Origin: Gaiellaceae bacterium | GTDB taxonomy: Bacteria; Actinomycetota; Thermoleophilia; Gaiellales; Gaiellaceae | Reading direction: 5' to 3' | DNA length: 64,000 nt | Assembly: GCA_965223695.1 (NCBI GenBank) | Contig: CBDCXJ010000011.1 | Location: 6,824-70,823 of the forward strand | Shown: positions 7,045-50,943 of the stretch, piece after piece | How positions within the stretch are numbered: position 1 is the stretch's first letter | How the letters are laid out: each line of letters opens with the position of its first letter | Translations under genes and position numbers: made by a program | Notes under the pieces: generated by a model | The model's input: the letters and a program-made list of their open reading frames with translations, nothing else | Told to the model about the DNA's origin: nothing | Database searches by the model: none

Positions 7045-7135
7045 GGAGAAGTGGCCGAGTGGCTGAAGGCGGCGCCCTGCTAAGGCGTTAGGTGGGGGAC
7101 TCCCTGCCTCGAGGGTTCGAATCCCTCCTTCTCCG
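7045..7135 (+). tRNA. tRNA-Ser (anticodon GCU), class II with a long variable arm
   Basis: Manual cloverleaf: acceptor GGAGAAG/CTTCTCC, anticodon loop CTGCTAA, T-arm GAGGG-TTCGAAT-CCCTC, discriminator G, no encoded CCA. Confidence 0.9.
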
Positions 7136-7177: not shown

Positions 7178-7266
7178 GGAGGGGTGGCAGAGCGGTCGAA
7201 TGCGGCGGTCTCGAAAACCGTTAGGGGCGGTTTCGTCCCTCGAGAGTTCGAATCTCTCCTCCTCCG
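7178..7266 (+). tRNA. tRNA-Ser (anticodon CGA), class II
   Basis: Acceptor GGAGGGG/CTCCTCC (one G-U pair), anticodon loop CTCGAAA, T-arm GAGAG-TTCGAAT-CTCTC, long variable arm. Confidence 0.9.
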
Positions 7267-12392: not shown

Positions 12393-12800
12393 GTGCATGT
12401 GACGCGCGGCGCGGAGCGGATCCTGCAGCAGGGGGGAACCGTCACCGTGCTCCACGCGAGCCCCGCGGACGGCGCGACCCAGCTCACGGTCCTCGAGCAG
12501 ACGCACCAACCGGGCGCCACGACGCCAACGCACCAGCACCACGGCTCGGAGGAGACGATCACCGTGATCGACGGTCGCGGCGAGTTCTGGGCAGGCGAGC
12601 AGACCGTCGAGCTCACGACCGGCGAGACGATTGTGATCCCGCCGCATACCTGGCATGGCTTTCGCAACGTGGGCGAGCACCCACTCCGCATCATCGCCTC
12701 GATCGCGGGAGGCAAGCCGCTGGTCGAGTACGAGGCCGATCCGGGAACCGCTATCGAGGTCGGATCAGCCGAGTGGCGCTCGCACTGGAGCGCCGACTAG
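12393..12800 (+). CDS. Cupin domain protein
   Basis: [48 protein letters not shown] matches the two cupin motifs. The GTG start at 12393 or 12399 is preferred over the track start at 12330. Confidence 0.75.
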
Positions 12801-13192
12801 CAGACGCGCTCGACGCCCGGGAAGCCATCGAACGCGGCGTCGAACGACATGATCTGCTCGATCCTGTGCCGCTCCATCACGGCGACATGGATCGCGTCTC
12901 GCGCCGAGAGCCCGTAGTTACCCAGGACGACGTCCTTCGCGCGCTCCGCGTCGAGGTGGTCGATCGGGTGGACGAATTCGACGACGCCCAGGACAGCGTC
13001 AAAGGCCGGCTGAATCGCGTCCGGCCGCGCGATCGCCACGTAGCGGTGGAGGATCTCCTGGAGCACCTCAGCGTCGGTAACGAGCGGCTCGCGCGCGGCG
13101 ATCGCCGACTCGAGCAGACGCTGCGCATCGATCTTGTGCGGATGAGCCGCGCCGACCAGGTACATCGGCACGTTCGAGTCGATCAGGATCAG
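12797..13192 (-). CDS. vapC: PIN-domain toxin VapC (proposed CTG start overlapping the vapB stop)
   Basis: PIN pattern (L)[19 protein letters not shown] ... DAIHVAVM. The first conserved Asp lies upstream of the first canonical start at 13171, so the CDS is extended to the CTG at 13192. Confidence 0.75.
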
Positions 13193-15301: not shown

Positions 15302-15522
15302 GGCGGACAGCGTACGCGGCGCGGCGCCTACCTCGACGCGACTCCGTGCAAGAGAAAAGGCACCAGGCGATCGCCCGTGGCGGCTGCGTCAAGTCGACCC
15401 GCGGCCAGGATCTGACTCGTCGCCGACTGGCTGATCGCGCCGAGGAGTGCATGGGCGACGGCGCGATTCCAGTGACCGGAGTCGCGCGCTGAACGACGAG
15501 CGCGCGACTCGGGTCGGGCCGT

Positions 15523-15738
15523 CTACGAGAGGATTTGAACCGCGAGGTTCGGGGTGCAACCCTGACGCAGCAGCTGCTCGGCGACGTGGAGATCGACGTC
15601 AACTCGCTCGGCGAGATACAGAGCCGTCGTCTCGTCGTAGCCGGCTTGGAGCAGCTGCTCGCGTCGCCAGGCGGTGACACGCTCGGCCTCGGTCTCGGTG
15701 AGGACTGCTTCGTTGAGTTCGGCAGTGGCCATGGTCAC
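15523..15738 (-). CDS. Small hypothetical protein (71 aa)
   Basis: Strong SD (GGAGGTG) 4 nt before the ATG. It has a predicted helical repeat LLQAGYDETTALYLAERVDVDLHVAEQLLRQGCTPNLAVQIL. No family recognised. Confidence 0.5.
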   Translation of the reverse strand: MTMATAELNEAVLTETEAERVTAWRREQLLQAGYDETTALYLAERVDVDLHVAEQLLRQGCTPNLAVQILS

Positions 15739-15884
15739 CTCCGTTTGTTGTATCCATTAGACCGATCCACGGATTGACCGCAGGGAGCGCAGCGCTAGGA
15801 AGTGCGACGGTTGCGTTAAGGCGTCTTAACCACTGCCGGCGAACAGGCTGGCCCCGACGGCGCGGGCAACGACGAGGCCGGGAG

Positions 15885-18800
15885 CTAGCTCTGCCGGCGA
15901 CGGCGACCACGGGCGCCGATGAGGAAGCCGACGGCGAACACGGCAATGACGGCGGCCGCGATCGTCGCGAGCTGGATCGAAGTGCCTACGCCCTTGCTCG
16001 TCTGAGTCTGTCCAGCTGCCTCAGCGCCCTCTGCCTCAGCCTGTGCGGGTGCGACTCCAGCGGCCTCCGATGACTCGCTCTCGCCGGTCTCCCCGTCCGA
16101 GCCGGCGCCTGCTGACGCACCCGCGACGTCTGACGAATCGCCGGCTGTAGCACCGTCAGAGGCGTCGCTCGACTCGCCGCTGGAGGCAGCCTCGTCACTG
16201 TCGCCCTCTCCCTCCACGGAGGAGCCAGAGGCACCGGCGCCGAGCACGCTCTCGAATGGATTGGGAGCCGGCGGTGAGGGCTGCTCGGCAGGCTCGGTCG
16301 GCTCAGCAGGGGCCGGAGCCGGCGCTGGCGGCGTTGCCGGGGACGATTCGACCGGCTCGGCGGCCGGAGTCTGCGGTTGACCCTTGGTCGGCTTCTTTGG
16401 CGCGGGCGTCTTCGGCTTGGGCTTGCGCGTCGTCGTCTCGGGTGGGTCGGCGGGCGCGGGCGGCGGGGCCGCGGCCGGAGCGGGTTCCGCCGGTGCCGGC
16501 GGTGGTGCCGGCGGGGCGGGCTCGATGGGGCCTTCTGAGGGCGTCGAGAGGCCGAGGATCGAGAAGGTCGCGGTTCCCTGTGAGTCACCGCCGGCCCCGT
16601 CCGAGACGGTGTAGGACACGTGGGCCTCGCCCAAGAATCCGTCGGGCGGCGTGTAGGTGATCGTCACGCCGTCGCTGACTTCGACCTCGCCGCCAGTCTC
16701 CGGCGGATCGACCGACACGATGGCGAGTAGATCGCCGTCCGGGTCGCTGTCGTTCGCCGTTACATCGATGCTGAGCGGCTCGTCGGACTTTGCTTCGAGG
16801 AAGTCATTCGTCACGACCGGGGGCCGGTTGCGCCTGATCCGAATCGTCAACTCGAGCGGAGTTCCCTCGCTGAGCCGACCGCTCGCCGCTTGCCCCCGCC
16901 GGCCATCGGTGGCCCGCACGCGCACGTTGCCGGGAAGGATGTGCAGGGCAACGCGGCCAGCATCGTCTGTCGTACCGACCTTCAGCCAGTCACGGCCCGG
17001 AACGGCGAGCTCGACGGTCGTGCCAGCCAGCGCCTCACCGTCTCGGTCGACGACCAGCACGGTCGCGTCCGAGAGCTTGAACTCGACTGTGCCTCCGGCC
17101 GCGCCGATGCTCGCACGTTGACGCACGTTGCGTCCGAGATGCTGCACGCGCGCAAGGACGCGGCCGGGGAACGTCTGGGTCACGACGTCGCCGCTCTCGC
17201 CTGCCGGGACGCGAGTCCAGCCGCTTCCCCTCACGTGGAGCTCGAAGACAGCGTCGGTCACAGGTTCGCCTGCGCTGTTCGAGACCTTGAACGACACGGG
17301 AACGAGCTTGAAGACGATCGGAGCTCCGTCTGCTGCGACCGTTCCACGGACGATGCCGCTCGCACCGCTGTAGGTGGCGCGCGCCGTCAGGCGTCCTGGG
17401 AACATGTCCGCCGTCACTTCGCCGCCGGCGCCGGTCGTACCAAGTTGCATCCAGCCCTTGCCGGGGAAGACACCGTCGATCGCTACGCCGCTCAACCCTG
17501 TGCCTGCAGTATCGAGCGCGCGGAAGGTGGCGCGCACGAGCTGGAAGTCGACGGCTGCTCCGCCGGGCTTGATCGCGGCGCGCTTGAGCTGCAGCCGGCC
17601 GGCGTGGTTGGCACGCACGGTCACCCGACCCGGGAACGTCTCTGTCGCCACCTGGCCGTTCTCGTCCGTCGTTCCGATCGCCGTCCAGCCCTTTCCGGCG
17701 AGAACCATCTCGATGGCATCGCCCGCGACAGGATTCCCGTCGGCGTCGAGCACGCGGAACCTCGCGCGCACGAGGCGGAACTCGGCGGTTCCTCCCGTTG
17801 CGGCCACATTCGCACGCAGGTTTCGCCAGACGCCGTTGTGCTGGGCGCGCAACCAGATTCGACCAGGGAAGGCCTCGGTCTTGACCTCGCCGCTCGCGTC
17901 GGACGTCCCGGCTGGGGTCCAGCCCGTACCAGGGACGAGGAGCTGAACAGGATCGCCGGCGATCGCGTTGCCATCGGCGTCGAGCACGCGGACGGTCAGC
18001 GGAGCGAGCCTGAACTCGATGTCGCCGCCAGTTGCCGCGATCCGCGCGCGAAGCGCGCGCCACGTCCCGAGAATCTGTGCTCTGACGAGCAGCCGGCCAG
18101 GGGCGGCCTGGTGGGCGACCCGTCCCTCGGCGTCGGTCGTGCCGATAGCCACCCAGCCACCACGGCCCGCGTGTGCTTGCACGGGAATGCCGGAAAGGGC
18201 TGCGCCCGCCTGATCGAGCACGCGAATCGGCGCCTCGACGAGCTTGAACTCAACCGTGGCCCCGCTCGCCGTGACGTTGGCGCGCGCGGTGCGCCACTGG
18301 CCACCGACCTGAGCACGTACCCAGTGCGTTCCGGGCAGGAGGGTGGTCGCGACGGAGCCGTCGCTCGCGGTAGATCCGACCGGCTGCCAGCCCTTGCCAC
18401 GCTCGAGCACCTGAACCTGCGCGCCTTCCACGCCGGCCCCGGAGACGTCGAGCACGACGACGCGGAGCTCTCCCAGCGTGAACGAGACGGTCGCGTCTTC
18501 CTCGACCTCCTGTACGACGTCGCTCGTTCGGCCCTTGTAGGTGGCGCGGAAGCGGTAGTTGCCGGGCTCGAGCTCAACGCTGGCGAGGCCCTCAGCGCTG
18601 GTCGAGCCAATAGAAGTCGTCGTTCCGCCGGCGATCGCGACGATCGCGACGGCAGCCACGGGCGTGCCTGCCGAGGAGCGCGCCTCGACCGTGATCATTG
18701 GAGTCGTGGCTTCTTCGGCCTCCTCTTCTGCGGCGGCGAGGCCGGGCGGCTGCGCTGACTCGCCCTCGGCCGACTCGGCGGGTGCCGGGGGTGCCCCGGG

Positions 18801-21122
18801 TGGCGGCGGCTCGGCAGGTGCGGGCGGCTCACTGCTCGGCTGCTCGGCCGGCTGCGGTGGCGCCGGGGTAGCCGGCACGGGCGGCTGAGGCGTCGGCTCG
18901 GCCGGACCGGGCGCGGCCGGAGCATCGGCGGGCGCTGGCGGCGGCGACGCTGGCGCAGGCGGCTCGGCCGGAGCCGGCTCGCTGGGCGTCGGCGGATCAG
19001 CCGGGGGCGGTGCGGCCGGCGGAGGCGGAGGTGGCGCTTCGGGCTGTGCGGGCGGTGGCGGCGGCGAGCCTTCGCCAGGCGGAGGCGGCGCGGGCGTGAC
19101 CGCGTTGCTGTCGTCAGCGCCGTACGCAGCGGCCGGGAACGCGGCGAAGACCATGATGGTTGCGAAGCTCGTCGCGAGCCTGACGACGCCACGTGCGCCG
19201 CGCGATCCGACGGCTTCGCTCGAGCGCGGGGCCGCAGGAGCCGCGCTCTCGACGGCGGGCACGTCCTGATCGAGCCCGCGGGCGAGCCGCGTCGGACGTG
19301 TGACCCAGTAGTAGATGCCGAGCGCATCGGGACGCTCGGCGTCGACATCGGTGATCTCGACGCCGAGCGACGCCTTGCCGGCGTTCGTCGCGACGTGGCG
19401 GAGGATCCCGCACACGGTTGCGGTTTCGAGGGTGCCGTCGAGTCGTGGCAGCTCGACCTTGACGGCAAGCGTGCTGCCGCGCTCGAGAGTGTCGGCCAGC
19501 TCGAGGGATGCCTCGAGGCCGAGGCCTCGGGGGGTGAGATCGACCACACGGATGGTCGTGGTCCCGATCTGTGCGTCGAGGCTGACGCCGTGGCGATGGT
19601 CGCGCGTCAGCCCGCGCCGCGTCGCGATCAACTGGAGGACGTCCATCATCGGCGCTAGCACGAAGAGACCGAGAAGTAGCACGACGTAGACCTCGCGCCC
19701 CTCGAATGCGGGCAGGATGTCACCCGTCCACTCGCCGACACCGCGAACGATCAAAAGCCCGTCGAGCAGGAGCGTGAACCCGGTCAGAAGCGCGAGGCGC
19801 CCGAGCGCGCGCAGTCCGCGCTCGTCGAGATCGGGCCGCCGCCGCGGCTTCGTCGGCAGGAGCGGCGTGATTGCGCGAATCGCGGCGCTGCAGTAGGACT
19901 CCATCGAGCGGATGCTGTGGCGCGTGCGGTCGCCGAGGGCGAGCGTGCCGCGGCCGAGCGCGAGGCCCGCGAGAACAGCGAGCACGTGCGCCGGCAGCCA
20001 GATTGCCGCCATCTCGGCAAACGACGCGCAGATCGGCAGCTGACCACTGGCGAGAGTGCCGGCGAGCACGGTGAGCAGAACCAGCCGGTGCAGGCCCGAG
20101 AAGTAGCGCGTGAGTGCCCCGAGATAGAGGAAGCGCGACACCAGCGGCAGGCCGCGCGCGACGAGCGGGTTGTCGCTCGTCGCAAAGACGCGGAGGTTCG
20201 CGAAGGCGCGGCGATGCCCGCGGTTGAGGTAGGTATCGAGGGTGTCTGGCCGGACGGCCTGCACGAGGGGCTCGGCGTGGAAGCGCACCTTGTAGCCGGC
20301 GGCCCTGAGCCTGATCGTCGTCCGCACCGCCTGGCTCGCGCCGCTCAGCGGATCGTCGATGTCGACCGAGGCGAGCGCGCTCTTGCGCACGATCGACGCC
20401 GAGCCACCCCAGGGAGCGTGTCCGTGTGCACCGAGCGAGGGCCCGATGACCTCGTTGAAGAAGTCCTCTTCGCTGCGCCCGTTGACCATGTAAGTGAAGG
20501 CGCTCGGGTTCGCGAGGCCGGTGCGGCACTGAACCGCCGCCACGTCGAAGACGCTGAAGTGGCCAACCGTGGCCTCGAAGACGTCGGCGAGCGGGACCTG
20601 CCCGCCCTGGAGGACCAGAACGAGCTCGCCGCTCGCGACGTCGAGGCCGGCCTGAAGCGTGTCGTCGGTCACGGCGTAGTCGGCGCCGTGGCTCTTGGCG
20701 AGGGCGGCGACGTCGTCGCGATACTCCGGATCGGTGACGAGGACGGTTGGCGAGCCGACGATCTCGCGGGCCGCGATCACCGTTCGCTCGAGGGCGGCGA
20801 GCGGAGCGTTGGCGCCGAGTACCAGCACGCTGGTGTCGAAGACCGGCCTTCTGATCGGCCTGGAGAACCTGGGCACCGACCACGACTGCGCGGCGAGCGA
20901 CAGCAGCTGGAAGAAGCCCCAAAGCTCGGCGGCGATCAGCGGGACGGCCAGCCACTTCGGCGCCCCGCCTAGAGTGAATGCGAGACGCCACGTGAGGTAG
21001 CCGGCGCCGACCAGGAGCGCCAGCGAGACGATCAGCTTGATGCGTCGCTCGGTGCGCGTGAGCAGGCCAAGGCCAGCGCGCACCGAGGTGAAGCGTCGTA
21101 CCGCCGAATGTCCCTTGCTCAT
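15885..21122 (-). CDS. Giant membrane protein: degenerate GT2/cellulose-synthase-like domain + PilZ + TM + Pro-rich linker + 8 beta-sandwich repeats + cadherin-like domain + acidic tail + C-terminal TM anchor
   Basis: 1745 aa from the ATG at 21122 (the track ORF starts at 21182). The start was chosen by alignment with the paralog N-terminus (MSKGHSAVRRFTSVRAG versus MSHGRE...RRLTSVRAG). The BcsA-like backbone is WGGSASIVRK...AGYKVRFH. The PilZ motifs are RRGLTR and DLTPRG. See findings. Confidence 0.85.
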   Translation of the reverse strand: MSKGHSAVRRFTSVRAGLGLLTRTERRIKLIVSLALLVGAGYLTWRLAFTLGGAPKWLAVPLIAAELWGFFQLLSLAAQSWSVPRFSRPIRRPVFDTSVLVLGANAPLAALERTVIAAREIVGSPTVLVTDPEYRDDVAALAKSHGADYAVTDDTLQAGLDVASGELVLVLQGGQVPLADVFEATVGHFSVFDVAAVQCRTGLANPSAFTYMVNGRSEEDFFNEVIGPSLGAHGHAPWGGSASIVRKSALASVDIDDPLSGASQAVRTTIRLRAAGYKVRFHAEPLVQAVRPDTLDTYLNRGHRRAFANLRVFATSDNPLVARGLPLVSRFLYLGALTRYFSGLHRLVLLTVLAGTLASGQLPICASFAEMAAIWLPAHVLAVLAGLALGRGTLALGDRTRHSIRSMESYCSAAIRAITPLLPTKPRRRPDLDERGLRALGRLALLTGFTLLLDGLLIVRGVGEWTGDILPAFEGREVYVVLLLGLFVLAPMMDVLQLIATRRGLTRDHRHGVSLDAQIGTTTIRVVDLTPRGLGLEASLELADTLERGSTLAVKVELPRLDGTLETATVCGILRHVATNAGKASLGVEITDVDAERPDALGIYYWVTRPTRLARGLDQDVPAVESAAPAAPRSSEAVGSRGARGVVRLATSFATIMVFAAFPAAAYGADDSNAVTPAPPPPGEGSPPPPPAQPEAPPPPPPAAPPPADPPTPSEPAPAEPPAPASPPPAPADAPAAPGPAEPTPQPPVPATPAPPQPAEQPSSEPPAPAEPPPPGAPPAPAESAEGESAQPPGLAAAEEEAEEATTPMITVEARSSAGTPVAAVAIVAIAGGTTTSIGSTSAEGLASVELEPGNYRFRATYKGRTSDVVQEVEEDATVSFTLGELRVVVLDVSGAGVEGAQVQVLERGKGWQPVGSTASDGSVATTLLPGTHWVRAQVGGQWRTARANVTASGATVEFKLVEAPIRVLDQAGAALSGIPVQAHAGRGGWVAIGTTDAEGRVAHQAAPGRLLVRAQILGTWRALRARIAATGGDIEFRLAPLTVRVLDADGNAIAGDPVQLLVPGTGWTPAGTSDASGEVKTEAFPGRIWLRAQHNGVWRNLRANVAATGGTAEFRLVRARFRVLDADGNPVAGDAIEMVLAGKGWTAIGTTDENGQVATETFPGRVTVRANHAGRLQLKRAAIKPGGAAVDFQLVRATFRALDTAGTGLSGVAIDGVFPGKGWMQLGTTGAGGEVTADMFPGRLTARATYSGASGIVRGTVAADGAPIVFKLVPVSFKVSNSAGEPVTDAVFELHVRGSGWTRVPAGESGDVVTQTFPGRVLARVQHLGRNVRQRASIGAAGGTVEFKLSDATVLVVDRDGEALAGTTVELAVPGRDWLKVGTTDDAGRVALHILPGNVRVRATDGRRGQAASGRLSEGTPLELTIRIRRNRPPVVTNDFLEAKSDEPLSIDVTANDSDPDGDLLAIVSVDPPETGGEVEVSDGVTITYTPPDGFLGEAHVSYTVSDGAGGDSQGTATFSILGLSTPSEGPIEPAPPAPPPAPAEPAPAAAPPPAPADPPETTTRKPKPKTPAPKKPTKGQPQTPAAEPVESSPATPPAPAPAPAEPTEPAEQPSPPAPNPFESVLGAGASGSSVEGEGDSDEAASSGESSDASDGATAGDSSDVAGASAGAGSDGETGESESSEAAGVAPAQAEAEGAEAAGQTQTSKGVGTSIQLATIAAAVIAVFAVGFLIGARGRRRRQS
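16830..18701 (-). repeat. Eight tandem, diverged ~234-bp (77-79 aa) coding repeats (carboxypeptidase-regulatory-like / Ig-like beta-sandwich pattern)
   Basis: Unit consensus: xxVRVLDADGxxxAGxxVxLxxPGxGWxxxGTTDxxGxVxTxxFPGRxxVRAxxxGxxxxxRAxVAAxGGTxEFxLV. Unit boundaries are 16830, 17067, 17298, 17532, 17766, 18000, 18234 and 18468. Confidence 0.8.
18702..19118 (-). repeat. Proline-rich low-complexity linker coding region (about 139 aa of P/A/E)
   Basis: Translation APPPPGEGSPPPPPAQPEAPPPPPPAAPPPADPP..., seen on the plus strand as runs of GGC/GGN. A second P-rich/acidic block lies at about 15975-16553. Confidence 0.75.
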
Positions 21123-21268
21123 GTGATGGAGTCCTGGATCGGTATGGACAAAGGCTGACCGACCCGGGCAGGGCGACAGCACCCGGGTGAGTCGTCTGCG
21201 TACCTCGGTTCTTGAGGGCGGGCGTCACCCGATCGAGGCCGGCGGTGCCCTGGAACCGGCGTCCGCGG

Positions 21269-23296
21269 CTAGAAGCCGGCCGACGGGAATGCTGCCGCGA
21301 CCATGACGACGGCGAACGTCGTCGCAACCCGAAGCGTGCCCCGTGCCCGGCCCGAGCCGACGGGCTCACGCGAGCCCGGTGCGGCTACCGTGGCGTCTCC
21401 CGGCACTACGGCCGCTTCGTCGAGACCGCGTGAGACCCGCGTGGGACGCGTCACCCAGTAGTAGATGCCGAGCGCGTCTGGCTGCTCGGGATCGGTCTCG
21501 GTGACCTCGACGCCCAGCGCCGAGCTCTCCTCGCCAGCCGAGACGTGACGGACGAGGCCCTTGAGCCGCGCGGTCATCGAGCTTCCGTCGAGCTGCGGCA
21601 GGTCGACATCGACGGCGAGTGCGTTCCCTCGCGGCAGCTGCGTCGCAAGCTGCGGGGCAAGCTCGATCCCGAGCCCGCGCGGGGTCACGTCGACCACCCG
21701 GGCCTCGGCGGCTCCGACGCGCGCTGCGAGGTTGGTCGGATGGCGGAAGCGTCGGCTCTCCTTGCGTCTCGAGACGAGCAGCTGGAGCACGTCGGTGATG
21801 GGAGCAAGCGCCAGCACACCGACGATCAACACGGCGTAGACCTCACGGCCGTCGAAGCCAGGAAGAACGTCGCTTCCCCAGGCCGTGGCGCCTCGCATGA
21901 TCAGTAGGACATCGAGGGCTAGTGCCACAGCGGTGAGCAGGGCAAGGCGCCCGAGCGCGCGTAGCCCCCGCCCGTTGCCGAGCGCGCGACGTCGAGGCCG
22001 GGTCGGCAGCACCGGGGTCAGGGCTCGGAGCGCGGCGCCGCAATAAGCCTCCATCGAGCGCAGACTGTGGCGCGTTCGATCGCCCAGGGCGAGCGTGCCC
22101 CGGCCGAGCGCGAGGCCAGCGAGCCCGCCGAGGATATGGGCCGGCAGCCAGAGCACGGCCAGCTCGCTCAGCGACGCGCTGAGAGGCAGCTGGCCGCTCG
22201 CGAGTGTTCCCGCCAGAACGGCGAGGAGGACGAAGCGGTGCAGACCAGAGAAGTAGCGCGAGATAGCACACAGGAAGACGAGGCGCGAGCGCAGCGGCAG
22301 CCGCCTGGCGATCAGTGGGTTCTCGGCCGTTGCGAGAACGCGAAGGTTGGCGAAAGCACGGCGGTGGCCGCGGTTGAGGTACCCGTCGAGCGTGTCGGGC
22401 CGAACGGCCTGCACGAGCGGCTCAGGGTGGAAGCGCACCTTGTAGCCGGCCGCCCTGAGCCTGATCGTTGTCCGCACCGCCTGGCTCGCGCCCCCGAGCG
22501 GTTTCGCAAGCTCGATCGACGCCAGGGCATCGCTTCGAACAACCGAGGCCGATCCGCCCCACGGCGTGTCTCCGCTGGCTCCGAGCGCGGGGCCGAGCAC
22601 CTCATTGAAGAGCGCCTCTTCGCTTCGGCCGTTGACGACGTAGGTCAGCGCATCAGTGTTGGCGAGGCCCGTGCGACACTGCACGACGGCCACGTCCGGC
22701 GCGGCGAAGTACCCCAGAGTCGAGTCGAAGACGTCGGCGAGCGGAACCTGTCCCCCCTGAAGAACGAGGACGAACTCGCCGCCCGCGGCGCGAAGTCCGG
22801 CCTCGAGCGTGTCGTAGGTGACCGCGTAGAGCGCCTTGTGCCGTGCGACGAGGCTCGCAACGTCGGTGCGATTCGCCGGATCCGTGACGACGACCGGCCG
22901 GTCTCCGGCGATCTGCTGAGCGGCCATGACCGAACGCTCGATGGCGGCCGGCGAGGCGTTTGCGCCGAGCACGAGCACCGAGGTGTCGGGTTCCTCGTCG
23001 CTTGCGAGCTCGCGCTCGGAGGGCACGGACCAGGCCTGGAACGCCAGCGCTGTGAGCTGGAGGAAGCCCCAGATCTCGGCACCGATCAACGGGAAAGCAA
23101 GCCAGCGGACCACTCCGTCGAGCGTCGCGCCCACCCGCCACGTCAGGTAGACGACGCCCAGGAGCAGCGCCAGGCCCACAATGCCGTGGATCCGGCGCTC
23201 ACTCGAGCACAGGAGTCTTACACCGGCACGTACCGACGTGAGTCGTCGAGCGTCAATCCATCCATGGGCCACTTCTGTCTCCCGTCCGTGGGACAC
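21269..23296 (-). CDS. Degenerate GT2/cellulose-synthase-like membrane protein with a C-terminal PilZ domain (short paralog)
   Basis: 675 aa, collinear with the first ~690 aa of the giant protein and clearly similar by eye. It has the same replaced catalytic motifs (VLVLQGGQVP, GASQAVRT, NRGHRRAFANLRV). The PilZ motifs are RRKESR and DVTPRG. It ends right after the last TM (AFPSAGF*). Confidence 0.85.
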   Translation of the reverse strand: MSHGRETEVAHGWIDARRLTSVRAGVRLLCSSERRIHGIVGLALLLGVVYLTWRVGATLDGVVRWLAFPLIGAEIWGFLQLTALAFQAWSVPSERELASDEEPDTSVLVLGANASPAAIERSVMAAQQIAGDRPVVVTDPANRTDVASLVARHKALYAVTYDTLEAGLRAAGGEFVLVLQGGQVPLADVFDSTLGYFAAPDVAVVQCRTGLANTDALTYVVNGRSEEALFNEVLGPALGASGDTPWGGSASVVRSDALASIELAKPLGGASQAVRTTIRLRAAGYKVRFHPEPLVQAVRPDTLDGYLNRGHRRAFANLRVLATAENPLIARRLPLRSRLVFLCAISRYFSGLHRFVLLAVLAGTLASGQLPLSASLSELAVLWLPAHILGGLAGLALGRGTLALGDRTRHSLRSMEAYCGAALRALTPVLPTRPRRRALGNGRGLRALGRLALLTAVALALDVLLIMRGATAWGSDVLPGFDGREVYAVLIVGVLALAPITDVLQLLVSRRKESRRFRHPTNLAARVGAAEARVVDVTPRGLGIELAPQLATQLPRGNALAVDVDLPQLDGSSMTARLKGLVRHVSAGEESSALGVEVTETDPEQPDALGIYYWVTRPTRVSRGLDEAAVVPGDATVAAPGSREPVGSGRARGTLRVATTFAVVMVAAAFPSAGF

Positions 23297-23376: not shown

Positions 23377-24513
23377 TCAGCGACCAAGCGCGCCGCGGTA
23401 GTACGCCCAGGCGGCGGTCACACGTGCGAGCCGATCGAGCTCGTCGTCGAGGAAGCGCTCGCGGTGGCGTGCGTCACCGATGGCGACCGCGGTGAAGTAC
23501 AGGGCACCGAACGCGCCAAGGATCCCGGCAACGCGAAAGTGGGCCTCGGTGAGGACGGCTTCGCGGTCGGCAATGACCGCCGAGACCAGGAGGTTCGGGT
23601 CGTCACCGACCCAGCGCATCGCCAGCTCACGATCGACAACGAGAAATGCGAAGATCAGGAAGAACAACCCGACTGCGAGTGCGACGGCGATGACGCGAAG
23701 CGCCAGGCTGAAGAGCAGTGCCAGGTCGATGTTGAGCCGCTCGATCCGTCCGAGCGCGGGCGTCGACGGGACCACCCCGCGTTCGACGAGAACGCGCGCG
23801 GGTGTGTTGCGAGCCCGCTCCTCGAGCTCCTCTCCCGGCTCGAAGTCGTGCACCCCCCTTCGCTCCCGCGAGAGCCCGTAGACGAGGATCAGCACGACGA
23901 GGATCGCGAACGCGATCACCACGCCGCCGTATCGCCAACCGCTCAACCCACCGAACGCCTGCCACGTCTCCATCGAGAGCGCAAGGAACAGGAGCACGGC
24001 CATGACGGGCGGCATCGCGCGGATCGCGATCGCGCCACTGTCGGCCAGCGTCGACGCGATCTGACGCGTCTGGTGCACCAGGAGCGACAGGACACCGAAG
24101 CTCATCAAGAAATACAGGGCGATCGCGATGCCGATCGTCGCGATTGCCAGGCCGATCACGGTATTCGCGCTCTCACCGAGCGCCGCAGCTGCGATCGGCG
24201 GAGCGACGACCAGCGCGAGGACCTCGGTGAACGTGATGCGCCGCGAGCGAGCTAGCAGCGGGCGGTCGCGCAGGAAGTTGAGCAGCGCGTAGACGCTCAC
24301 GGCGACGGCGAGCGCCGCGAGCACGGCAAGGATTCGAAGCCACCATGACCACTCGGGGCGCAGGGCGATTCCCAGGCCCACGATGAACAGGGCATAGAGA
24401 CCGGGACGCATGCGCGTGAGCGTGTCGGTACGCGCGTCGTAGCCGGCATTCAGATGCGGCAGCCCGTTGTGGAGGAAGTAGCGCTCGATCCGGGCTCGCT
24501 CGAGCGGCTCCAT
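23377..24513 (-). CDS. Polytopic integral membrane protein, function unknown
   Basis: 378 aa with several hydrophobic helices. It is the only long ORF with coding-like composition here. Its start abuts the DUF1015 stop. Confidence 0.6.
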   Translation of the reverse strand: MEPLERARIERYFLHNGLPHLNAGYDARTDTLTRMRPGLYALFIVGLGIALRPEWSWWLRILAVLAALAVAVSVYALLNFLRDRPLLARSRRITFTEVLALVVAPPIAAAALGESANTVIGLAIATIGIAIALYFLMSFGVLSLLVHQTRQIASTLADSGAIAIRAMPPVMAVLLFLALSMETWQAFGGLSGWRYGGVVIAFAILVVLILVYGLSRERRGVHDFEPGEELEERARNTPARVLVERGVVPSTPALGRIERLNIDLALLFSLALRVIAVALAVGLFFLIFAFLVVDRELAMRWVGDDPNLLVSAVIADREAVLTEAHFRVAGILGAFGALYFTAVAIGDARHRERFLDDELDRLARVTAAWAYYRGALGR

Positions 24514-39904: not shown

Positions 39905-39995
39905 GGAGAGGTGTCCGAGTTGGCCTAAGGAGCGCGACTGGAAATCGCGTACTCGGGTTACACCCGAGTCGTGGGTTCGAATCCCACCCTCTCCG
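39905..39995 (+). tRNA. tRNA-Ser (anticodon GGA), class II
   Basis: Acceptor GGAGAGG/CCTCTCC, anticodon loop CTGGAAA, T-arm GTGGG-TTCGAAT-CCCAC, long variable arm. Confidence 0.9.
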
Positions 39996-47000: not shown

Positions 47001-47097
47001 CCATTCCGGTCCCGGTTACGCGCTGCACTCAGCTCGCTTGCCTCGTTCTGCCCGACTAGTGTGCGCCCGCGATGGCTAGCGAGCGGAGGGATGGCGA

Positions 47098-50000
47098 ATG
47101 AAGCGGATCGGCGTCGATGTCGGAGGAACGTTCACCGACCTGATCCTCGTCGACGAGGAAGCAGGCGCCATCCACGTCGACAAGGTCCCGTCGACGTCCG
47201 ATGACCCGGCGCGCGGCACGGTCGCGGGCGTCGAAGCGCTGTGCAAGACGAACGGCCTGACGCTCGCCGACATCGACGCGATCCTCCATGGCACGACGGT
47301 CGCGACGAACATCGTGCTCGAGCGGGCCGGCGCCTCGGTCGGGCTGATCACGACCGAGGGGATGCGCGACATTCTCCACATCGCGCGCCACAAGCGCCCG
47401 TACAACTTCTCGCTGCACTGCGAGCTGCCGTGGCAGAGCCATCCGCTTGTGAAGCGCCGGCATCGGCTGACCGTCGCCGAAAGGATCACGACGCCGAACG
47501 GCGAGGCGCTCGTCAAGCTCGACGACGACGAGGTTCGCGAGCGGGTCCGCGAGCTGAGAGCGGCGGGGGTCGACGCGGTCGCCGTCTGCCTGCTGCACTC
47601 CTACCTGAACCCCGAGCACGAGAAGCGGATCGCCGCGATCCTCGAGGAGGAGTTCCCCGAGGCGTACCGCTCGGTCTCGCACGAGGTTCTTCCCCTCTAT
47701 CGCGAGTACGAGCGCTTCTCGACGGTCTGTCTCAACGCCTCGATCGGCCCGCGTGTCTCCGAGTACATCGGTCGTATGGCGACCGCGCTCGGCGACGCAG
47801 GCTTCGCGCACGACCTGCAGCTGATGCAGTCGAGTGGCGGAACGGTCGGCTCGGAGGCGGCGAGATCACGGCCTGTGTCGTTGCTGATGTCCGGGCCCGT
47901 GGCCGGGCTGATCGGAGGCATCTGGGCCGGGCGGATGGCGGGCTACGAGAACGTGATCACGCTCGACATGGGCGGCACCTCGGCCGACATCGGCGTCGCC
48001 CCCGGCGGCGAGCTGCGCATGCGTCACCTCGTCGACACGACGGTTGGCGGATACCACGCGATGGTGCCCATGGTCGACGTCGACACGATCGGCGCGGGTG
48101 GTGGCTCGATCGCCTACGTCGACCGCGGCGGTGTGTTTCGCGTTGGGCCACAGAGCGCGGGCGCTGATCCTGGCCCGGCCTGCTACGGGCGCGGCGGCGA
48201 TGACCCGACTTCTACCGACGCCCAACTCGCGCTCGGTCGACTGTCAGAGAGCGGTCTGCTCGGTGGCCAGATGCCGCTCGACAGGGCCAAGGCCGAGGCG
48301 GCTCTTGCCAGCGTCGCGGAGCCGCTCGGGGTGAGCACCACCGAGGCGGCGCTGGGCCTTCTCCAGGTGCAGAAGTTCGGCATGACCCAGTCGATCGAGC
48401 TCAACTCGGTCCGTCGGGGATACGACCCGCGCGAGTTCACGCTGGTCGCGGCCGGCGGCGCCGGCCCGCTCTTCGCCTGCGATATCGCGCTCGAGCTCGA
48501 CATCTCGCGGGTGCTGGTGCCCCCTCACCCGGGGATCACATCGGCAACGGGCTTGCTCGCGACCGACGTGCTGCACGAGCTGGTCGCAACGGTCATGGAG
48601 CGGCTCGACAGACTCGACGCGGCCGGGCTGAGCGGCACGTTCTCCGAGCTCGAGGCGCGGGCCGGCGAGGCGCTCACGCGAGACGGCTATACCGGCGATC
48701 GCGCGATAGTCACGCGCCTGGCCGACTGCCGCTATGTGGGGCAGGGCTACGAGGTGCGCTGCGAGGTGCCTTCTGGAGTCATCGACGACGCCTGGGTCGA
48801 GGCGACCGAGCAGTCGTTCCACGAGGCACACGAGCGGGAGTACGGGCAGCGCTTCGACTCGCGCATTCAGATCGTGAACGTTCGCGTGACCGGCGTCGGG
48901 CTCGTGCCCGAGCTCGACTGGCCGGAGGCCCCGCCGGCCGAAGGAGCACCCGAGTCGACGCGCGTGCACGACGTCGTGTTCGAGGTCGACGGCGAGCCTG
49001 CCGCGCTCGCCACGCCCTTCTTCGACAGAGGCGACCTCCAGGCCGGCCACGCGCTCGCGGGCCCGGCCATCATCGAGCAGTACGACTCGACGACGGTCGT
49101 CCCGCCGGGGCTCGAAGCGACGATCGACCGCCACGGCAACATCGTGATCGACTGCACACGTGCAAGCTCACGCGACGAAGGTGAGCACGGCGTAGGCCTC
49201 GCGACGCCGGTTCTTATGCGCGTCATCGGCGGCGCCTTCTCGTCGATCGCCATGGAGATGTCGTCGATCCTCTTCCGCATGTCGTACAGCTCGATCATCC
49301 GCGAGTCAGAGGATCTCGGCGCCGGCATCTTCGACCGCGACGGCAACGAGCTGGCCGAGTCCGACTCGACGCCGATGTTCATGGGCGCGATGCCGAAGAT
49401 CGTCAAGGGCGTCGTCAACGAGCTAGGCGACGACATCCACGACGGCGACGTGATCGCCCACAACCACCCCTACAAGGGCGCGACGCACTCACCCGACATC
49501 GGCATCGTCGTCCCGATCTTCTGGGAAGAGGAGCTGGTGGCGTTCTCGGGCGCCTCGGCGCACCTGCTCGACATCGGCGGCGCCTACCCGGGGATGGCGA
49601 TCGACCTGGTCGACATGTGGGCCGAGGGCCAGATCTGGGATGCGCTGAAGCTGAGCTCGAAGGGTGTGCGCCAGGAGAGCACCTGGCGCTCGATGCTGAC
49701 GAACGTGCGCACCCCGACCCACAACAAGGGCGACATCGAGGCGATGATCGCCGCGTGCGAGCGCGGGAAGGCACGCTTCCTCGAGCTGGTTCGCCGCTAC
49801 GGCAAGGACCAGGTGCTCGGTGCCGCCAACGACTGGCTCGCCTACTCGGAGCAGATGTTGCGCCAGGAGATCGCCAAGATCCCCGACGGCACCTACGACG
49901 TGCCGATGGGCTGGATGGACGACGACGGCAAGAACTACGGCACACGCCTTCCCGTCAAGATCAAGGTGTTGATCGACGGCAGCACGCTGACGATCGACAC

Positions 50001-50943
50001 GACCGGCTCGAGCTCAGAGACCGAGACGGCGTTCAACTCGCCCTACGTCGGCGCCGTCACCAGCGCCGCGACGTACATCGCGCGGACGATCTTCCTCGAC
50101 GAGGCCACGTACGACGTGTTCGTGCCCCAGAACGAGGGGATGCTCACCCCGGTCGAGGTGATCGCGCCCGAGGGCTCGATCTTCAACCCGCGTTTTCCGC
50201 GAGCAACCAAGGCGCGCTTCTGCCAGATCCAGCGCATGGCCGACTTCACGCTCCGTGCCCTGGCGCCGGTCATTCCGGAGAAGATCACGGCGGGCAACTC
50301 GGCCGCGACGACCTTCTTCTCGTACTCCGGCTTCGACCCCGAGGACGACGAGTACTGGGTCTACCTCGAGGTGAACGAGGGATCGCACGGCGGACGCCAG
50401 GGGGCCGACGGCTGGGACACGGTCGACTGTCTCGTTGCCAACACGCGCAACAACCCGATCGAGGAGCTCGAGTGGCGCTTCCCGATGAGAACTGAGCGCT
50501 ACGAGGTGCGCGACGATCTCGCCGCGCCCGGGCGCTGGCGTGGGGGCATCGGCACGGTGCGCGTGAACCGCTTCCTCGTCGACACGATCATCGCCAGCGA
50601 GGGCGAGCGCTTCTTCGGGGATCCACCGTGGGGCATCTTCGGCGGGCACGAGGGCAAGCTCGCCTCGACACGCAAGAACCCCGACACGCCCGACGAGGAG
50701 AATTGGCCCTCGAAGTTCACGAACTACCGGATGGCGGCCGGCGATGCGGTCGAGATCATCGTGCCCAGCTCCGGAGGCTACGGCGATCCGCTCGAGCGGC
50801 CCCCGCAGCAGGTGCTCGAAGACGTGCTCGATGGCTTCCACAGCCTCGAGCAGGCGCGTGAGGACTACGGCGTGGTCATCGACGCGGCGTCTATGAGCGT
50901 GGACGACGCGGCGACCGAAGCGCTGCGCGGCGATAAGAGCTAA
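47098..50943 (+). CDS. Fused hydantoinase/oxoprolinase (HyuA-like N-terminal half + HyuB-like C-terminal half)
   Basis: 1281 aa. MKRIGVDVGGTFTDLILVDE (HyuA), then IFDRDGNELAESDSTPMFMG...HNHPYKGATHSPD (HyuB). GGAGGG SD upstream. Confidence 0.9.
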   Translation: MKRIGVDVGGTFTDLILVDEEAGAIHVDKVPSTSDDPARGTVAGVEALCKTNGLTLADIDAILHGTTVATNIVLERAGASVGLITTEGMRDILHIARHKRPYNFSLHCELPWQSHPLVKRRHRLTVAERITTPNGEALVKLDDDEVRERVRELRAAGVDAVAVCLLHSYLNPEHEKRIAAILEEEFPEAYRSVSHEVLPLYREYERFSTVCLNASIGPRVSEYIGRMATALGDAGFAHDLQLMQSSGGTVGSEAARSRPVSLLMSGPVAGLIGGIWAGRMAGYENVITLDMGGTSADIGVAPGGELRMRHLVDTTVGGYHAMVPMVDVDTIGAGGGSIAYVDRGGVFRVGPQSAGADPGPACYGRGGDDPTSTDAQLALGRLSESGLLGGQMPLDRAKAEAALASVAEPLGVSTTEAALGLLQVQKFGMTQSIELNSVRRGYDPREFTLVAAGGAGPLFACDIALELDISRVLVPPHPGITSATGLLATDVLHELVATVMERLDRLDAAGLSGTFSELEARAGEALTRDGYTGDRAIVTRLADCRYVGQGYEVRCEVPSGVIDDAWVEATEQSFHEAHEREYGQRFDSRIQIVNVRVTGVGLVPELDWPEAPPAEGAPESTRVHDVVFEVDGEPAALATPFFDRGDLQAGHALAGPAIIEQYDSTTVVPPGLEATIDRHGNIVIDCTRASSRDEGEHGVGLATPVLMRVIGGAFSSIAMEMSSILFRMSYSSIIRESEDLGAGIFDRDGNELAESDSTPMFMGAMPKIVKGVVNELGDDIHDGDVIAHNHPYKGATHSPDIGIVVPIFWEEELVAFSGASAHLLDIGGAYPGMAIDLVDMWAEGQIWDALKLSSKGVRQESTWRSMLTNVRTPTHNKGDIEAMIAACERGKARFLELVRRYGKDQVLGAANDWLAYSEQMLRQEIAKIPDGTYDVPMGWMDDDGKNYGTRLPVKIKVLIDGSTLTIDTTGSSSETETAFNSPYVGAVTSAATYIARTIFLDEATYDVFVPQNEGMLTPVEVIAPEGSIFNPRFPRATKARFCQIQRMADFTLRALAPVIPEKITAGNSAATTFFSYSGFDPEDDEYWVYLEVNEGSHGGRQGADGWDTVDCLVANTRNNPIEELEWRFPMRTERYEVRDDLAAPGRWRGGIGTVRVNRFLVDTIIASEGERFFGDPPWGIFGGHEGKLASTRKNPDTPDEENWPSKFTNYRMAAGDAVEIIVPSSGGYGDPLERPPQQVLEDVLDGFHSLEQAREDYGVVIDAASMSVDDAATEALRGDKS

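What the first reader, a model, noticed from the sequence alone, without database searches (positions are those of the whole stretch)
15885..23296. Tandem cellulose-synthase-like (BcsA-fold) paralogs: PilZ c-di-GMP motifs intact, all GT2 catalytic motifs replaced
Two adjacent minus-strand genes (21269-23296 and 15885-21122) share a collinear ~680-aa core: 2 N-terminal TMs, a GT2-like cytosolic domain, a TM bundle, a PilZ domain and a final TM. The scaffold aligns with BcsA (WGGSASIVRK versus FFCGSCAILRR; AGYKVRFH versus LGWSTAYL), but the catalytic signatures are gone in both copies.
- **DxD.** ILIFDCDHVP is replaced by VLVLQGGQVP (20601-20609).
- **TED.** VTEDAHT is replaced by ASQAVRT (20328-20336).
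- **QxxRW.** GQRVRWARG is replaced by NRGHRRAFA (20208-20225).
- **PilZ.** The c-di-GMP motifs are canonical in both: RRGLTR (19602-19619) plus DLTPRG (19524-19541) in one, and RRKESR plus DVTPRG in the other.
This pattern, a dead enzyme core with a live second-messenger receptor kept in two diverged copies, suggests a c-di-GMP sensing or scaffolding role rather than polysaccharide synthesis. I do not recall such a pair being characterised.
Basis: partly seen in the sequence, partly recalled or inferred. Interest (0 to 1): 0.85.

Follow-up and report, generated by a model that had tools for sequence, protein, structure and literature searches.

The report
Dead cellulose-synthase-like membrane proteins with PilZ
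Two neighbouring genes encode membrane proteins that keep the whole shape of bacterial cellulose synthase but have lost every residue needed to make sugar chains; they belong to a large, unnamed actinobacterial family that probably links the signal molecule c-di-GMP to cell-surface adhesin-like domains.

Summary
The sequence observation holds. Two adjacent minus-strand genes (21269-23296, 675 aa; 15885-21122, 1745 aa) share a 64%-identical core. That core has the BcsA fold (AF2 pTM 0.81; Foldseek 4p00_A E=5e-28).

Three things change the picture:
- **Not a one-off.** The pair belongs to a clade of at least 115 50%-identity clusters from Acidimicrobiia and Thermoleophilia MAGs. All members lack the catalytic motifs. 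No acidic residue in the GT domain is conserved at 80% or more.
- **New parts.** The dead clade gained a seventh, signal-peptide-like TM helix. It usually also carries an extracellular passenger of beta-sandwich adhesin-type repeats, with a C-terminal anchor or an LPXTG signal. Active relatives have none of it.
- **PilZ less intact than claimed.** The homologous RxxxR (BcsA R580/R584) is 95-99% conserved in the clade. In this four-member subclade its first Arg is Ser or Thr.

Most likely these are non-catalytic receptors or scaffolds that couple the cytoplasm to a surface protein. c-di-GMP binding is likely for the family and uncertain here. I found no published description.

The parts
15885..21122 (-). 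Long paralog (1745 aa). It has the dead BcsA-like core, TM7, an extracellular passenger and a C-terminal TM anchor.
   Evidence: ORF and translation. Pfam hits to GT2, CarboxypepD_reg, Big_9 and Cadherin_5. Hydropathy profile.
20247..20849 (-). GT2-like (GT-A) domain of the long paralog. QGGQ replaces DxD(H) at 20598-20609, SQA replaces TED at 20328-20336, and RGHRR replaces QxxRW at 20208-20222.
19623..20240 (-). Interface helices and TM3-TM6 of the long paralog. This includes the clade-specific GDRTR motif at 19920-19934.
19272..19619 (-). PilZ-like domain of the long paralog. RRGLTR lies at 19602-19619, with T at the BcsA-R580 position. DLTPRG lies at 19524-19541.
   Evidence: (17.1 bits, below the Pfam threshold).
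19131..19187 (-). TM7 of the long paralog. It is signal-peptide-like (RGARGVVRLATSFATIMVFAAFPAAAYG/ADD).
18708..19121 (-). Pro/Ala-rich extracellular linker.
   Evidence: 38% Pro.
16896..18695 (-). Eight tandem repeats of about 78 aa, of the CarboxypepD_reg/Big-like beta-sandwich type (residues 810-1409).
16557..16850 (-). Cadherin-like / Big_9 domain.
   Evidence: PF17963 E=2e-19.
15978..16550 (-). Second Pro-rich stretch followed by an acidic Ser/Gly/Ala-rich low-complexity stalk.
15888..15971 (-). C-terminal TM anchor (LATIAAAVIAVFAVGFLIG) plus an RGRRRRQS tail. There is no LPXTG motif.
21269..23296 (-). Short paralog (675 aa; the database start at 23272 gives 667 aa). It has the same core and ends right after TM7.
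22397..22999 (-). GT2-like domain of the short paralog, with QGGQ at 22748-22759, SQA at 22478-22486 and RGHRR at 22358-22372.
21422..21769 (-). PilZ domain of the short paralog. RRKESR lies at 21752-21769, with S at the BcsA-R580 position. DVTPRG lies at 21674-21691.
   Evidence: (27.8 bits).
21293..21352 (-). TM7 of the short paralog. The protein ends a few residues later.
23377..24513 (-). Upstream multi-TM protein of 378 aa with no known family. It is syntenic and 78% identical next to the orthologue in L005. Whether it is a partner is unproven.

Best explanation
Both genes encode non-catalytic descendants of an actinobacterial BcsA-type synthase (GT2 domain, TM bundle, PilZ). They belong to a large unnamed clade that lost glycosyl transfer. 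That clade gained a seventh, signal-peptide-like TM helix. It usually also gained an extracellular passenger built of adhesin-type beta-sandwich repeats, ending in a membrane anchor or an LPXTG sorting signal.

**Proposed mechanism (inferred, not shown).** The dead GT domain, the interface helices and the TM bundle survive as a conformational transducer. In the family, c-di-GMP binding at the PilZ linker changes how PilZ packs against the GT-like domain, as it does in BcsA. This change is passed through the membrane to TM7 and the surface passenger. It would alter the display, retention, processing or clustering of that passenger. This is inside-out signalling comparable in logic to LapD.

**In this window.** The long paralog is the complete device. 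The short paralog is a passenger-less copy that sits at the ancestral locus. It may act alone as a membrane receptor or scaffold, or it may pair with the long one.

**Caveat for this subclade.** The Arg equivalent to BcsA R580 is Ser or Thr here. c-di-GMP binding may therefore be weakened, re-registered onto R511/R515, or lost.

**What is shown and what is inferred.**
- Shown: fold, loss of catalytic residues, purifying selection, family-wide PilZ conservation, passenger architecture, and operon linkage to GGDEF-EAL in a sister clade.
- Inferred: ligand binding, transmembrane coupling, the adhesin role, and short-long pairing.
For: **Fold.** The AF2 model has pTM 0.81. Its top PDB matches are BcsA over the full length. 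The family profile hits R. sphaeroides BcsA at E=1e-36 across GT, TM and PilZ.

**Catalytic loss.**
- DxD, TED and QxxRW are replaced in both genes.
- Of 156 family sequences, 128 have none of the three motifs and 20 have all three.
- The second Asp of DxD is Gly in 97% of the dead clade. No acidic residue in the GT domain is conserved at 80% or more.

**Retained function.** dN/dS is 0.13-0.31 for the GT-like domain. A clade-specific GDxxR motif is 89-96% conserved.

**Receptor.** R514 is Arg in 109 of 115 members, R518 in 114 of 115, and D536/G541 are 96-99% conserved. Pfam finds PilZ in 32 of 38 long members.

**Passenger.**
- 66 of 97 members have more than 250 aa after PilZ.
- Among the 38 long members scanned, Pfam finds CarboxypepD_reg in 14, SdrD_B in 14, SpaA in 3 and Big_1 in 3.
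- 36 of 70 have a C-terminal hydrophobic segment followed by an Arg-rich tail. True LPXTG signals occur in P0084, P0122 and P0117.
- TM7 and the passenger are absent from canonical and intermediate relatives.

**Link to c-di-GMP and the cell surface.** In two unrelated contigs of the sister clade (L001, L007) the gene heads an operon with overlapping stop and start codons. The operon also encodes a GGDEF-EAL protein and TasA/camelysin-like proteins.

**No synthase partner nearby.** No BcsB or active GT2 gene lies near any of the three clades examined.
Against: - In the window's subclade the first Arg of the homologous RxxxR is Ser or Thr. The two orthologues (P0002, P0003) have no RxxxR in any register.
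- The long paralog's PilZ falls below the Pfam threshold.
- PilZ is the fastest-evolving domain between the paralogs, with dN/dS of 0.4-0.57.
- The 64-kb window contains no GGDEF motif and no c-di-GMP riboswitch. The neighbouring genes are metabolic.
- There is no direct evidence for transmembrane coupling, for adhesion, or for cleavage at TM7. The AxA test after TM7 is weak in Ala-rich proteins.
- dS is saturated (about 1), so the dN/dS values are rough.
Confidence: 0.5

Rival explanations
1. The proteins are pure structural anchors or scaffolds. In this subclade the PilZ domain no longer binds c-di-GMP. They act constitutively as a membrane platform for the surface passenger (long paralog) or for unknown partners (short paralog), with no second-messenger input.
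For: S/T replaces the BcsA-R580-equivalent Arg in all four subclade members, and the orthologues lack any RxxxR. The long paralog's PilZ is below the Pfam threshold. dN/dS is higher in PilZ than in the GT-like domain. No c-di-GMP enzymes are found in the window.
Against: DxTxxG, G543 and R518 are all retained. Both window proteins carry a fresh RRxxxR pattern and five Arg within nine residues of a flexible linker. The PilZ domain is still under purifying selection (0.16 between short and P0002).
Confidence: 0.2
2. The proteins are non-catalytic subunits of a polysaccharide synthesis and export complex. The dead BcsA-like protein pairs with an active GT2 encoded elsewhere. It supplies the c-di-GMP receptor, and the passenger acts as a BcsB-like guide. 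This would resemble Alg44 with Alg8, or BcsB fused to BcsA in AcsAB.
For: The long paralog has the topology of a BcsA-BcsB fusion: a core, an extracellular domain and a C-terminal TM anchor. This comparison rests on established knowledge of AcsAB. CarboxypepD_reg-type domains have a carbohydrate-binding-like fold. Canonical active relatives exist in Actinomycetota.
Against: No active GT2 or BcsB-like gene lies beside family members in any of the three clades examined. In BcsA the polymer enters the channel directly from its own active site, so a separate enzyme feeding a dead channel has no precedent. LPXTG-bearing passengers look like surface proteins, not polysaccharide guides.
Confidence: 0.15
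3. The proteins are still active glycosyltransferases that use unconventional residues and make an unknown polymer.
For: The GT-A fold and the first Asp of the DDG motif are retained (D139; 92 of 133 in the clade). Many clade members keep the first Asp of DxD, as DAGD.
Against: In the window proteins DxD is QGGQ, TED is SQA and QxxRW is RGHRR, and the FxVTxK gating loop is gone. No acidic residue in the GT domain reaches 80% conservation across 115 members. The equivalog HMM scores 75-82 bits against a cut-off of 699.
Confidence: 0.05
4. The genes are decaying relics with no function.
For: The catalytic motifs are lost and the PilZ motif is eroding.
Against: Both ORFs are intact, at 675 and 1745 codons, with coding GC3. 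dN/dS is 0.18-0.29 overall. The clade has more than 115 clusters with its own conserved motifs.
Confidence: 0.03

Closest known systems
BcsA, bacterial cellulose synthase catalytic subunit (PDB 4HG6/4P00; E. coli 9B8V)
   Same: The overall architecture and fold are the same: N-terminal TM helices, a cytosolic GT-A domain, interface helices, a TM bundle and a C-terminal PilZ. The evidence is Foldseek E=5e-28 with TMq 0.67-0.72 and a profile E=1e-36. The PilZ motifs align to R580xxxR584 and D609xSxxG.
   Different: - DxD, TED, QxxRW and FxVTxK are all lost.
- There are only two N-terminal TM helices.
- There is an extra TM7 after PilZ and, in the long paralog, an extracellular passenger.
- No BcsB gene is present.
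- The equivalog HMM score is far below its cut-off.
Canonical actinobacterial BcsA-like GT2-PilZ proteins (e.g. P0124 cluster, Microcella sp. WP_448941336.1; Nanopelagicales MHB0927308.1)
   Same: These are the closest active-looking relatives in the same HMM search, with the same core length and PilZ.
   Different: They keep DDG, DADH, xED and QRxRW, and they lack TM7 and any passenger. Intermediates such as P0071 (Acidimicrobiales), P0075 and P0106 have lost only some of the motifs.
AcsAB of Komagataeibacter (natural BcsA-BcsB fusion)
   Same: The topology is the same: a synthase core followed by an extracytoplasmic domain that ends in a single C-terminal TM anchor. This comparison rests on established knowledge and was not tested here.
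   Different: AcsAB is catalytically active. Its periplasmic part is BcsB (carbohydrate-binding and flavodoxin-like domains), not CarboxypepD_reg or cadherin-like repeats.
LapD (degenerate GGDEF-EAL inside-out c-di-GMP receptor controlling the LapA adhesin)
   Same: The logic is the same. A dead enzyme domain is reused as a c-di-GMP-responsive transmembrane switch that governs a surface adhesin. This is a functional analogy only.
   Different: There is no homology. LapD acts through a periplasmic domain that captures the LapG protease. Here the adhesin-like part is on the same polypeptide.
Alg44 (PilZ-containing non-catalytic co-polymerase of alginate synthase Alg8)
   Same: It is a non-catalytic membrane protein whose cytoplasmic PilZ confers c-di-GMP control and which has an extracytoplasmic domain.
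   Different: Alg44 has no GT-like domain and works with an adjacent active GT2. No such partner is seen here.

Membership tests
BcsA / UDP-forming cellulose synthase catalytic subunit (TIGR03030, NF008558) | Whole-chain fold: GT-A domain, TM channel and PilZ | tested here: met
   AF2 model with pTM 0.81. Foldseek hits 4p00_A at E=4.9e-28 and 9b8v_E at TMq 0.72.
BcsA / UDP-forming cellulose synthase catalytic subunit (TIGR03030, NF008558) | Equivalog HMM score at or above the curated cut-off | tested here: not met
   TIGR03030 scores 82.2 and 75.5 bits against a cut-off of 699.1. NF008558 scores 51.5 and 36 bits against 992.
BcsA / UDP-forming cellulose synthase catalytic subunit (TIGR03030, NF008558) | Catalytic D,D,D,QxxRW signature (DDG, DxD, TED, QxxRW) | tested here: not met
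   Only the first Asp of DDG is kept. DxD is QGG, TED is SQA and QRxRW is RGHRR in both genes.
BcsA / UDP-forming cellulose synthase catalytic subunit (TIGR03030, NF008558) | FxVTxK gating loop | tested here: not met
   The region aligned to BcsA RFAVTAKD shows no conservation. A different, clade-specific GDxxR motif lies nearby.
BcsA / UDP-forming cellulose synthase catalytic subunit (TIGR03030, NF008558) | Adjacent bcsB or other bcs genes | tested here: not met
   The neighbours within about 10 kb are metabolic genes plus one unknown membrane protein.
BcsA / UDP-forming cellulose synthase catalytic subunit (TIGR03030, NF008558) | Polymerises UDP-glucose | not testable with these tools
   This needs an in vitro assay.
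PilZ c-di-GMP receptor domain (PF07238) | Pfam model at or above the gathering score | tested here: inconclusive
   The short paralog scores 23.4 bits (whole protein) and 27.8 bits (domain alone) against a threshold of 22.5. The long paralog scores 17.1 bits, below the threshold.
PilZ c-di-GMP receptor domain (PF07238) | RxxxR in the position homologous to BcsA R580/R584 | tested here: not met
   Column 514 is S (short) or T (long) against Arg in 109 of 115 members. R518 is kept. An RRxxxR pattern sits three residues upstream in both proteins and is absent in orthologues P0002 and P0003.
PilZ c-di-GMP receptor domain (PF07238) | [D/N]hSxxG motif | tested here: met
   The motifs are DVTPRG and DLTPRG, with Thr in place of Ser. 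This matches 66 of 99 clade members.
PilZ c-di-GMP receptor domain (PF07238) | Binds c-di-GMP | not testable with these tools
   This needs DRaCALA, ITC or MST.
Unnamed clade defined here: dead BcsA-like core + PilZ + TM7 (+ passenger) | Gly at the second Asp of DxD, no TED or QxxRW, and a GDxxR motif | tested here: met
   Both genes have QGGQ and GDRTR. They branch inside the dead clade on the NJ tree.
Unnamed clade defined here: dead BcsA-like core + PilZ + TM7 (+ passenger) | Signal-peptide-like TM7 after PilZ, followed by a beta-sandwich passenger | tested here: met
   TM7 is present in both genes. The passenger is present only in the long paralog. The short form is the minority architecture (16 of 97).
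Sortase-anchored (LPXTG) surface proteins | LPXTG, a hydrophobic segment and a basic tail at the C-terminus | tested here: not met
   The long paralog has the hydrophobic segment and an RGRRRRQS tail but no LPXTG or LAxTG. Some family members do have a true signal (P0084, P0122, P0117).

The most novel reading that the evidence does not exclude
A whole family of 'dead cellulose synthases' has been repurposed in Acidimicrobiia and Thermoleophilia. Each is made as one polypeptide with its own surface adhesin and acts as a PilZ-type, c-di-GMP-gated inside-out transducer. The BcsA regulatory switch (the PilZ linker against the GT domain) now drives display, release or wall-anchoring of a protein instead of glucan synthesis. 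The window's subclade would be a further step, in which the ligand site itself is being remodelled.
Probability: 0.3. Interest if true: 0.8.

Novelty: new variant of a known kind. Interest (0 to 1): 0.62.

Why it matters
PilZ-type c-di-GMP effectors are essentially uncharacterised in Actinomycetota. The known effectors there are transcription factors and RsiG (PMC7005675). Degenerate GGDEF, EAL and HD-GYP domains are classic c-di-GMP receptors. I found no report of a degenerate processive glycosyltransferase kept as part of a receptor.

If the model is right, the BcsA allosteric machinery can be uncoupled from catalysis and reused for protein-based surface control. It would also give a direct, testable handle on biofilm and aggregation control in abundant but uncultured soil and freshwater actinobacteria.

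There is also a practical point for annotation. These proteins are currently named 'glycosyltransferase family 2 protein', 'cellulose synthase' or 'hypothetical protein'. They should not be counted as polysaccharide synthases.

Tried and rejected
- **Word-indexed homologue searches** returned only six proteins even when queried with a 20-sequence profile. The apparent rarity was an artefact of the word filter. The exhaustive HMM search found 3,710 relatives.
- **Genome-collection scan.** The first attempt with A2 failed because the alignment had no conserved stretch. The second, with A3, gave one locus, L007. I therefore could not place the window's organism directly. Its taxonomy is inferred from the named nearest relatives.
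- **Window context.** The neighbours are metabolic. There is no GGDEF motif in 64 kb, no riboswitch or other Rfam hit near the genes, and no informative promoter or terminator.
- **DAGD-clade context (36 metagenome loci).** The synteny is strongly conserved but with housekeeping genes: FKBP, His_Phos_1, ThiS, an MshA-like GT4 and YbjN. I read this as lineage synteny, not functional linkage. The nearby RsiG is noted but not relied on.
- **BcsA E371-R580 salt bridge.** I considered whether it is conserved, using D301 as the equivalent. D or E occupies that column in only 65% of the dead clade and H or L in canonical relatives, so I dropped the idea.
- **Upstream gene in L006.** I tested whether it is related to the window's 378-aa protein. 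It is not.
- **AxA after TM7.** It is present in 53 of 70 long members, but these proteins are Ala-rich. I treat it as suggestive only.

Full report
**1. The observation.** Two minus-strand ORFs occupy 21269-23296 (675 codons) and 15885-21122 (1745 codons from the ATG; the ORF is open to 21182). Both have coding-type codon bias, with GC3 of 0.81-0.82 against GC2 of 0.53-0.57. Their first 680 or so residues are collinear and 64% identical. Pfam GT2 models (PF13632, PF13641) pass their thresholds in both proteins. PilZ passes in the short one.

**2. Is it really a BcsA scaffold with dead catalytic motifs?** Four independent lines say yes.
- phmmer against PDB sequences hits E. coli BcsA (E=1e-6). 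It aligns FDCDHVP to LQGGQVP, TED to SQA, and QRIRW to RGHRR.
- A 20-sequence family profile hits R. sphaeroides BcsA (5ej1, 4hg6, 4p00) at E=1e-36. The alignment spans GT, TM and PilZ and gives the same equivalences. It also aligns the PilZ motifs to R580xxxR584 and D609xSxxG.
- An AF2 model of the short paralog (mean pLDDT 81.6, pTM 0.81) has BcsA structures as its best whole-chain matches: 4p00_A at E=4.9e-28 and TMq 0.67, and 9b8v_E at TMq 0.72.
- The curated cellulose-synthase equivalog models score only 75-82 bits against a cut-off of 699.

The FxVTxK gating-loop motif is also not conserved. Across 115 relatives, no acidic residue in the GT-like domain is conserved at 80% or more. No substitute catalytic base or metal ligand is therefore evident.

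**3. It is a family, not a curiosity.**
- The word-indexed protein search suggested only six relatives. An exhaustive profile search of 1.84 billion representatives found 3,710 hits, 684 of them below 1e-30.
- I extracted the motif columns from the best 150 plus the window proteins. Of these, 128 have none of DxD, ED or QxxRW, 20 have all three (DDGRR, DADHVP, FWCGSA, xED, QRxRWARG), and 8 are intermediate.
- On a neighbour-joining tree the canonical proteins form one group, with partly decayed lineages beside them (P0080, P0071, P0075, P0106, P0121 and others). The fully dead proteins form the large remainder.
- The window proteins sit in a small QGGQ subclade with P0002 (74% identity) and P0003 (65%). 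The sister group is P0015/P0057.
- Source names place dead members in Thermoleophilia (P0015, MEZ5098902.1) and in Acidimicrobiia, Acidimicrobiales and Acidimicrobiaceae. Canonical relatives come from Microcella and Nanopelagicales.
- The source names are generic: 'glycosyltransferase family 2 protein', 'PilZ domain-containing protein', 'hypothetical protein'.
- Six full-text literature searches and two targeted reads found no description of a degenerate GT2-PilZ family.

**4. The dead domain is maintained.**
- Nei-Gojobori dN/dS is 0.13-0.31 for the GT-like domain and 0.13-0.18 for the following interface/TM3-4 segment. It is 0.16-0.57 for PilZ, among the two paralogs and two orthologues. dS is about 1 and saturated, so these values are approximate.
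- The dead clade has its own signature. Gly replaces the second Asp of DxD in 97% of members. A GDxxR motif on the cytosolic interface region is 96/89/96% conserved, against 21/-/37% in canonical relatives.

**5.
- Hydropathy and the model give the topology TM1-2, GT-like domain, TM3-4, interface region, TM5-6, PilZ, then a seventh TM helix. TM7 puts the C-terminus outside the cell.
- The short paralog stops there.
- The long paralog continues with the following parts, in order:
  - a Pro/Ala-rich linker;
  - eight tandem 78-aa CarboxypepD_reg/Big-type repeats (residues 810-1409);
  - a cadherin-like/Big_9 domain;
  - a second Pro-rich and acidic stalk;
  - a final TM helix with an RGRRRRQS tail.
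- This is the rule for the family. Of 97 dead members, 66 have more than 250 residues after PilZ.
- In 38 long members Pfam finds PilZ in 32, CarboxypepD_reg in 14, SdrD_B in 14, SpaA in 3 and Big_1 in 3.
- TM7 looks like a signal peptide, with a basic n-region, a hydrophobic core and small residues after it.
- Of 70 long members, 36 end in a hydrophobic segment plus an Arg-rich tail. At least three carry textbook LPXTG sorting signals: P0084 LPVTG, P0122 LPRTG and P0117 LPETG.
- Canonical and intermediate relatives have neither TM7 nor an extension. Loss of catalysis and gain of a surface passenger therefore go together.

**6. The PilZ caveat.**
- In the family the Arg pair homologous to BcsA R580/R584 falls in short-paralog columns 514 and 518. 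It is almost invariant: 109 of 115 and 114 of 115. The same holds for D536 and G541.
- The only four sequences with Ser or Thr at column 514 are the QGGQ subclade: short S, long T, P0002 T and P0003 S.
P0002 (RRHATHRFR) and P0003 (RRAVSGDFR) have no RxxxR in any register.
- The long paralog's PilZ alone scores 17.1 bits, below the gathering score of 22.5. The short paralog's scores 27.8 bits.
- c-di-GMP binding is therefore well supported for the family. For these two proteins it is an open question. The linker is flexible and Arg-rich, so a re-registered site is possible.

**7. Context.**
- The window neighbourhood is uninformative. It holds an FMN-dependent dehydrogenase, an SDR, a PIN-domain gene, aconitase, DUF1015, an aminotransferase, a dehydrogenase and an epimerase.
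- The one exception is an unknown 378-aa multi-TM protein directly upstream. It is 78% identical and syntenic next to the orthologue in L005.
- L005 has only the short gene between that protein and the FMN dehydrogenase. The short paralog is therefore the ancestral resident of the locus, and the long gene is an addition here or a loss there. The tree suggests the split between short and long is older than the split between short and P0002.
- In the sister clade (31-35% identity), two unrelated contigs (L001 at GC 0.66, L007 at GC 0.60) share an operon with overlapping stop and start codons. Its genes are a dead-GT/PilZ/CarboxypepD_reg protein, a protein of about 185 aa, a GGDEF-EAL protein of about 990 aa, and two proteins of about 200 aa of which one is TasA/camelysin-like (PF12389). 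This ties the family to c-di-GMP turnover and to secreted matrix-type proteins.
- In the largest (DAGD) clade the gene sits in conserved housekeeping synteny, which indicates a stable chromosomal gene but not a specific function.
- No BcsB or active GT2 gene accompanies any of these.

**8. Interpretation.** The best-supported reading is a non-catalytic, BcsA-derived membrane receptor or scaffold. Its GT-like domain and TM bundle are kept as a structural and conformational module. Its output is a covalently attached surface protein.
- For the family I infer c-di-GMP-driven inside-out signalling. It would be analogous in logic to LapD and homologous in hardware to the BcsA PilZ switch.
- For this window I rate 'non-catalytic' at about 0.85, 'binds c-di-GMP' at about 0.5, and 'controls or anchors an adhesin-like passenger (long paralog)' at about 0.4-0.5.
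- The rivals are a constitutive anchor without ligand control, a silent subunit of a synthase complex, a cryptic active enzyme, and a decaying relic. They are listed with their tests.

**9. Verdict.** The sequence observation is accurate. The 'live receptor' half is solid for the family but weakened for these two genes. The finding is better described as a new, widespread, uncharacterised variant of the BcsA family in which catalysis was exchanged for a surface passenger. It is a new variant of a known kind and of moderate to high interest.

Noticed in passing
window 23377-24513 (-): A 378-aa multi-TM protein with no Pfam or NCBIfam match lies directly upstream of the short paralog. It is 78% identical and syntenic in L005, which is more conserved than the pseudo-synthase itself. 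It may be a partner, or the adjacency may only reflect synteny.
   Followed up: partly
L001 10001-17391 and L007 7860-15847: The sister clade has a conserved operon with overlapping stop and start codons. It encodes a dead-GT/PilZ/CarboxypepD_reg protein, a protein of about 185 aa of unknown function, a GGDEF-EAL protein of about 990 aa, and two proteins of about 200 aa, one of them TasA/camelysin-like (PF12389). In L001 a 1179-aa DUF2341/LamG protein follows.
   Followed up: partly
L001 5868-9869 (+): A 1333-aa protein has an N-terminal HD/HD_5 (HD-GYP-type) domain fused to cadherin-like, Big_9 and FG-GAP repeats. This is another c-di-GMP-type module joined to adhesin-like domains, and it sits just upstream of the family member.
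   Followed up: no
L003 7790-8287 and about 17 other DAGD-clade loci: A homologue of RsiG, the c-di-GMP-binding anti-sigma factor (PF22802), lies three to four genes downstream of the family member, within conserved housekeeping synteny. This may be coincidental.
   Followed up: no
P0007, P0009, L007 7860-11147: Some family members carry two PilZ domains in tandem after the dead core.
   Followed up: no
P0004 (Logan assembly): This protein is identical to the long paralog for about 590 residues and then diverges into Arg/Pro-rich sequence. It looks like a frameshifted assembly of the same gene from another dataset.
   Followed up: no
window 15302-15884: About 580 bp between the long gene's stop codon and the FMN-dependent dehydrogenase gene has no ORF with coding-type codon bias. 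L005 has no such gap. It may be a scar of the long gene's insertion.
   Followed up: no
window 12797-13171 (-): A PIN-domain (VapC-like) gene sits among the metabolic genes. I did not look for a partner antitoxin.
   Followed up: no
window 7045-7135, 7178-7266, 39905-39995 (+): There are three tRNA genes, each with a match about 90 nt long (long variable arm type). Two are adjacent.
   Followed up: no
window 47080-50943 (+): A single 1287-aa ORF fuses hydantoinase/oxoprolinase A and B domains.
   Followed up: no
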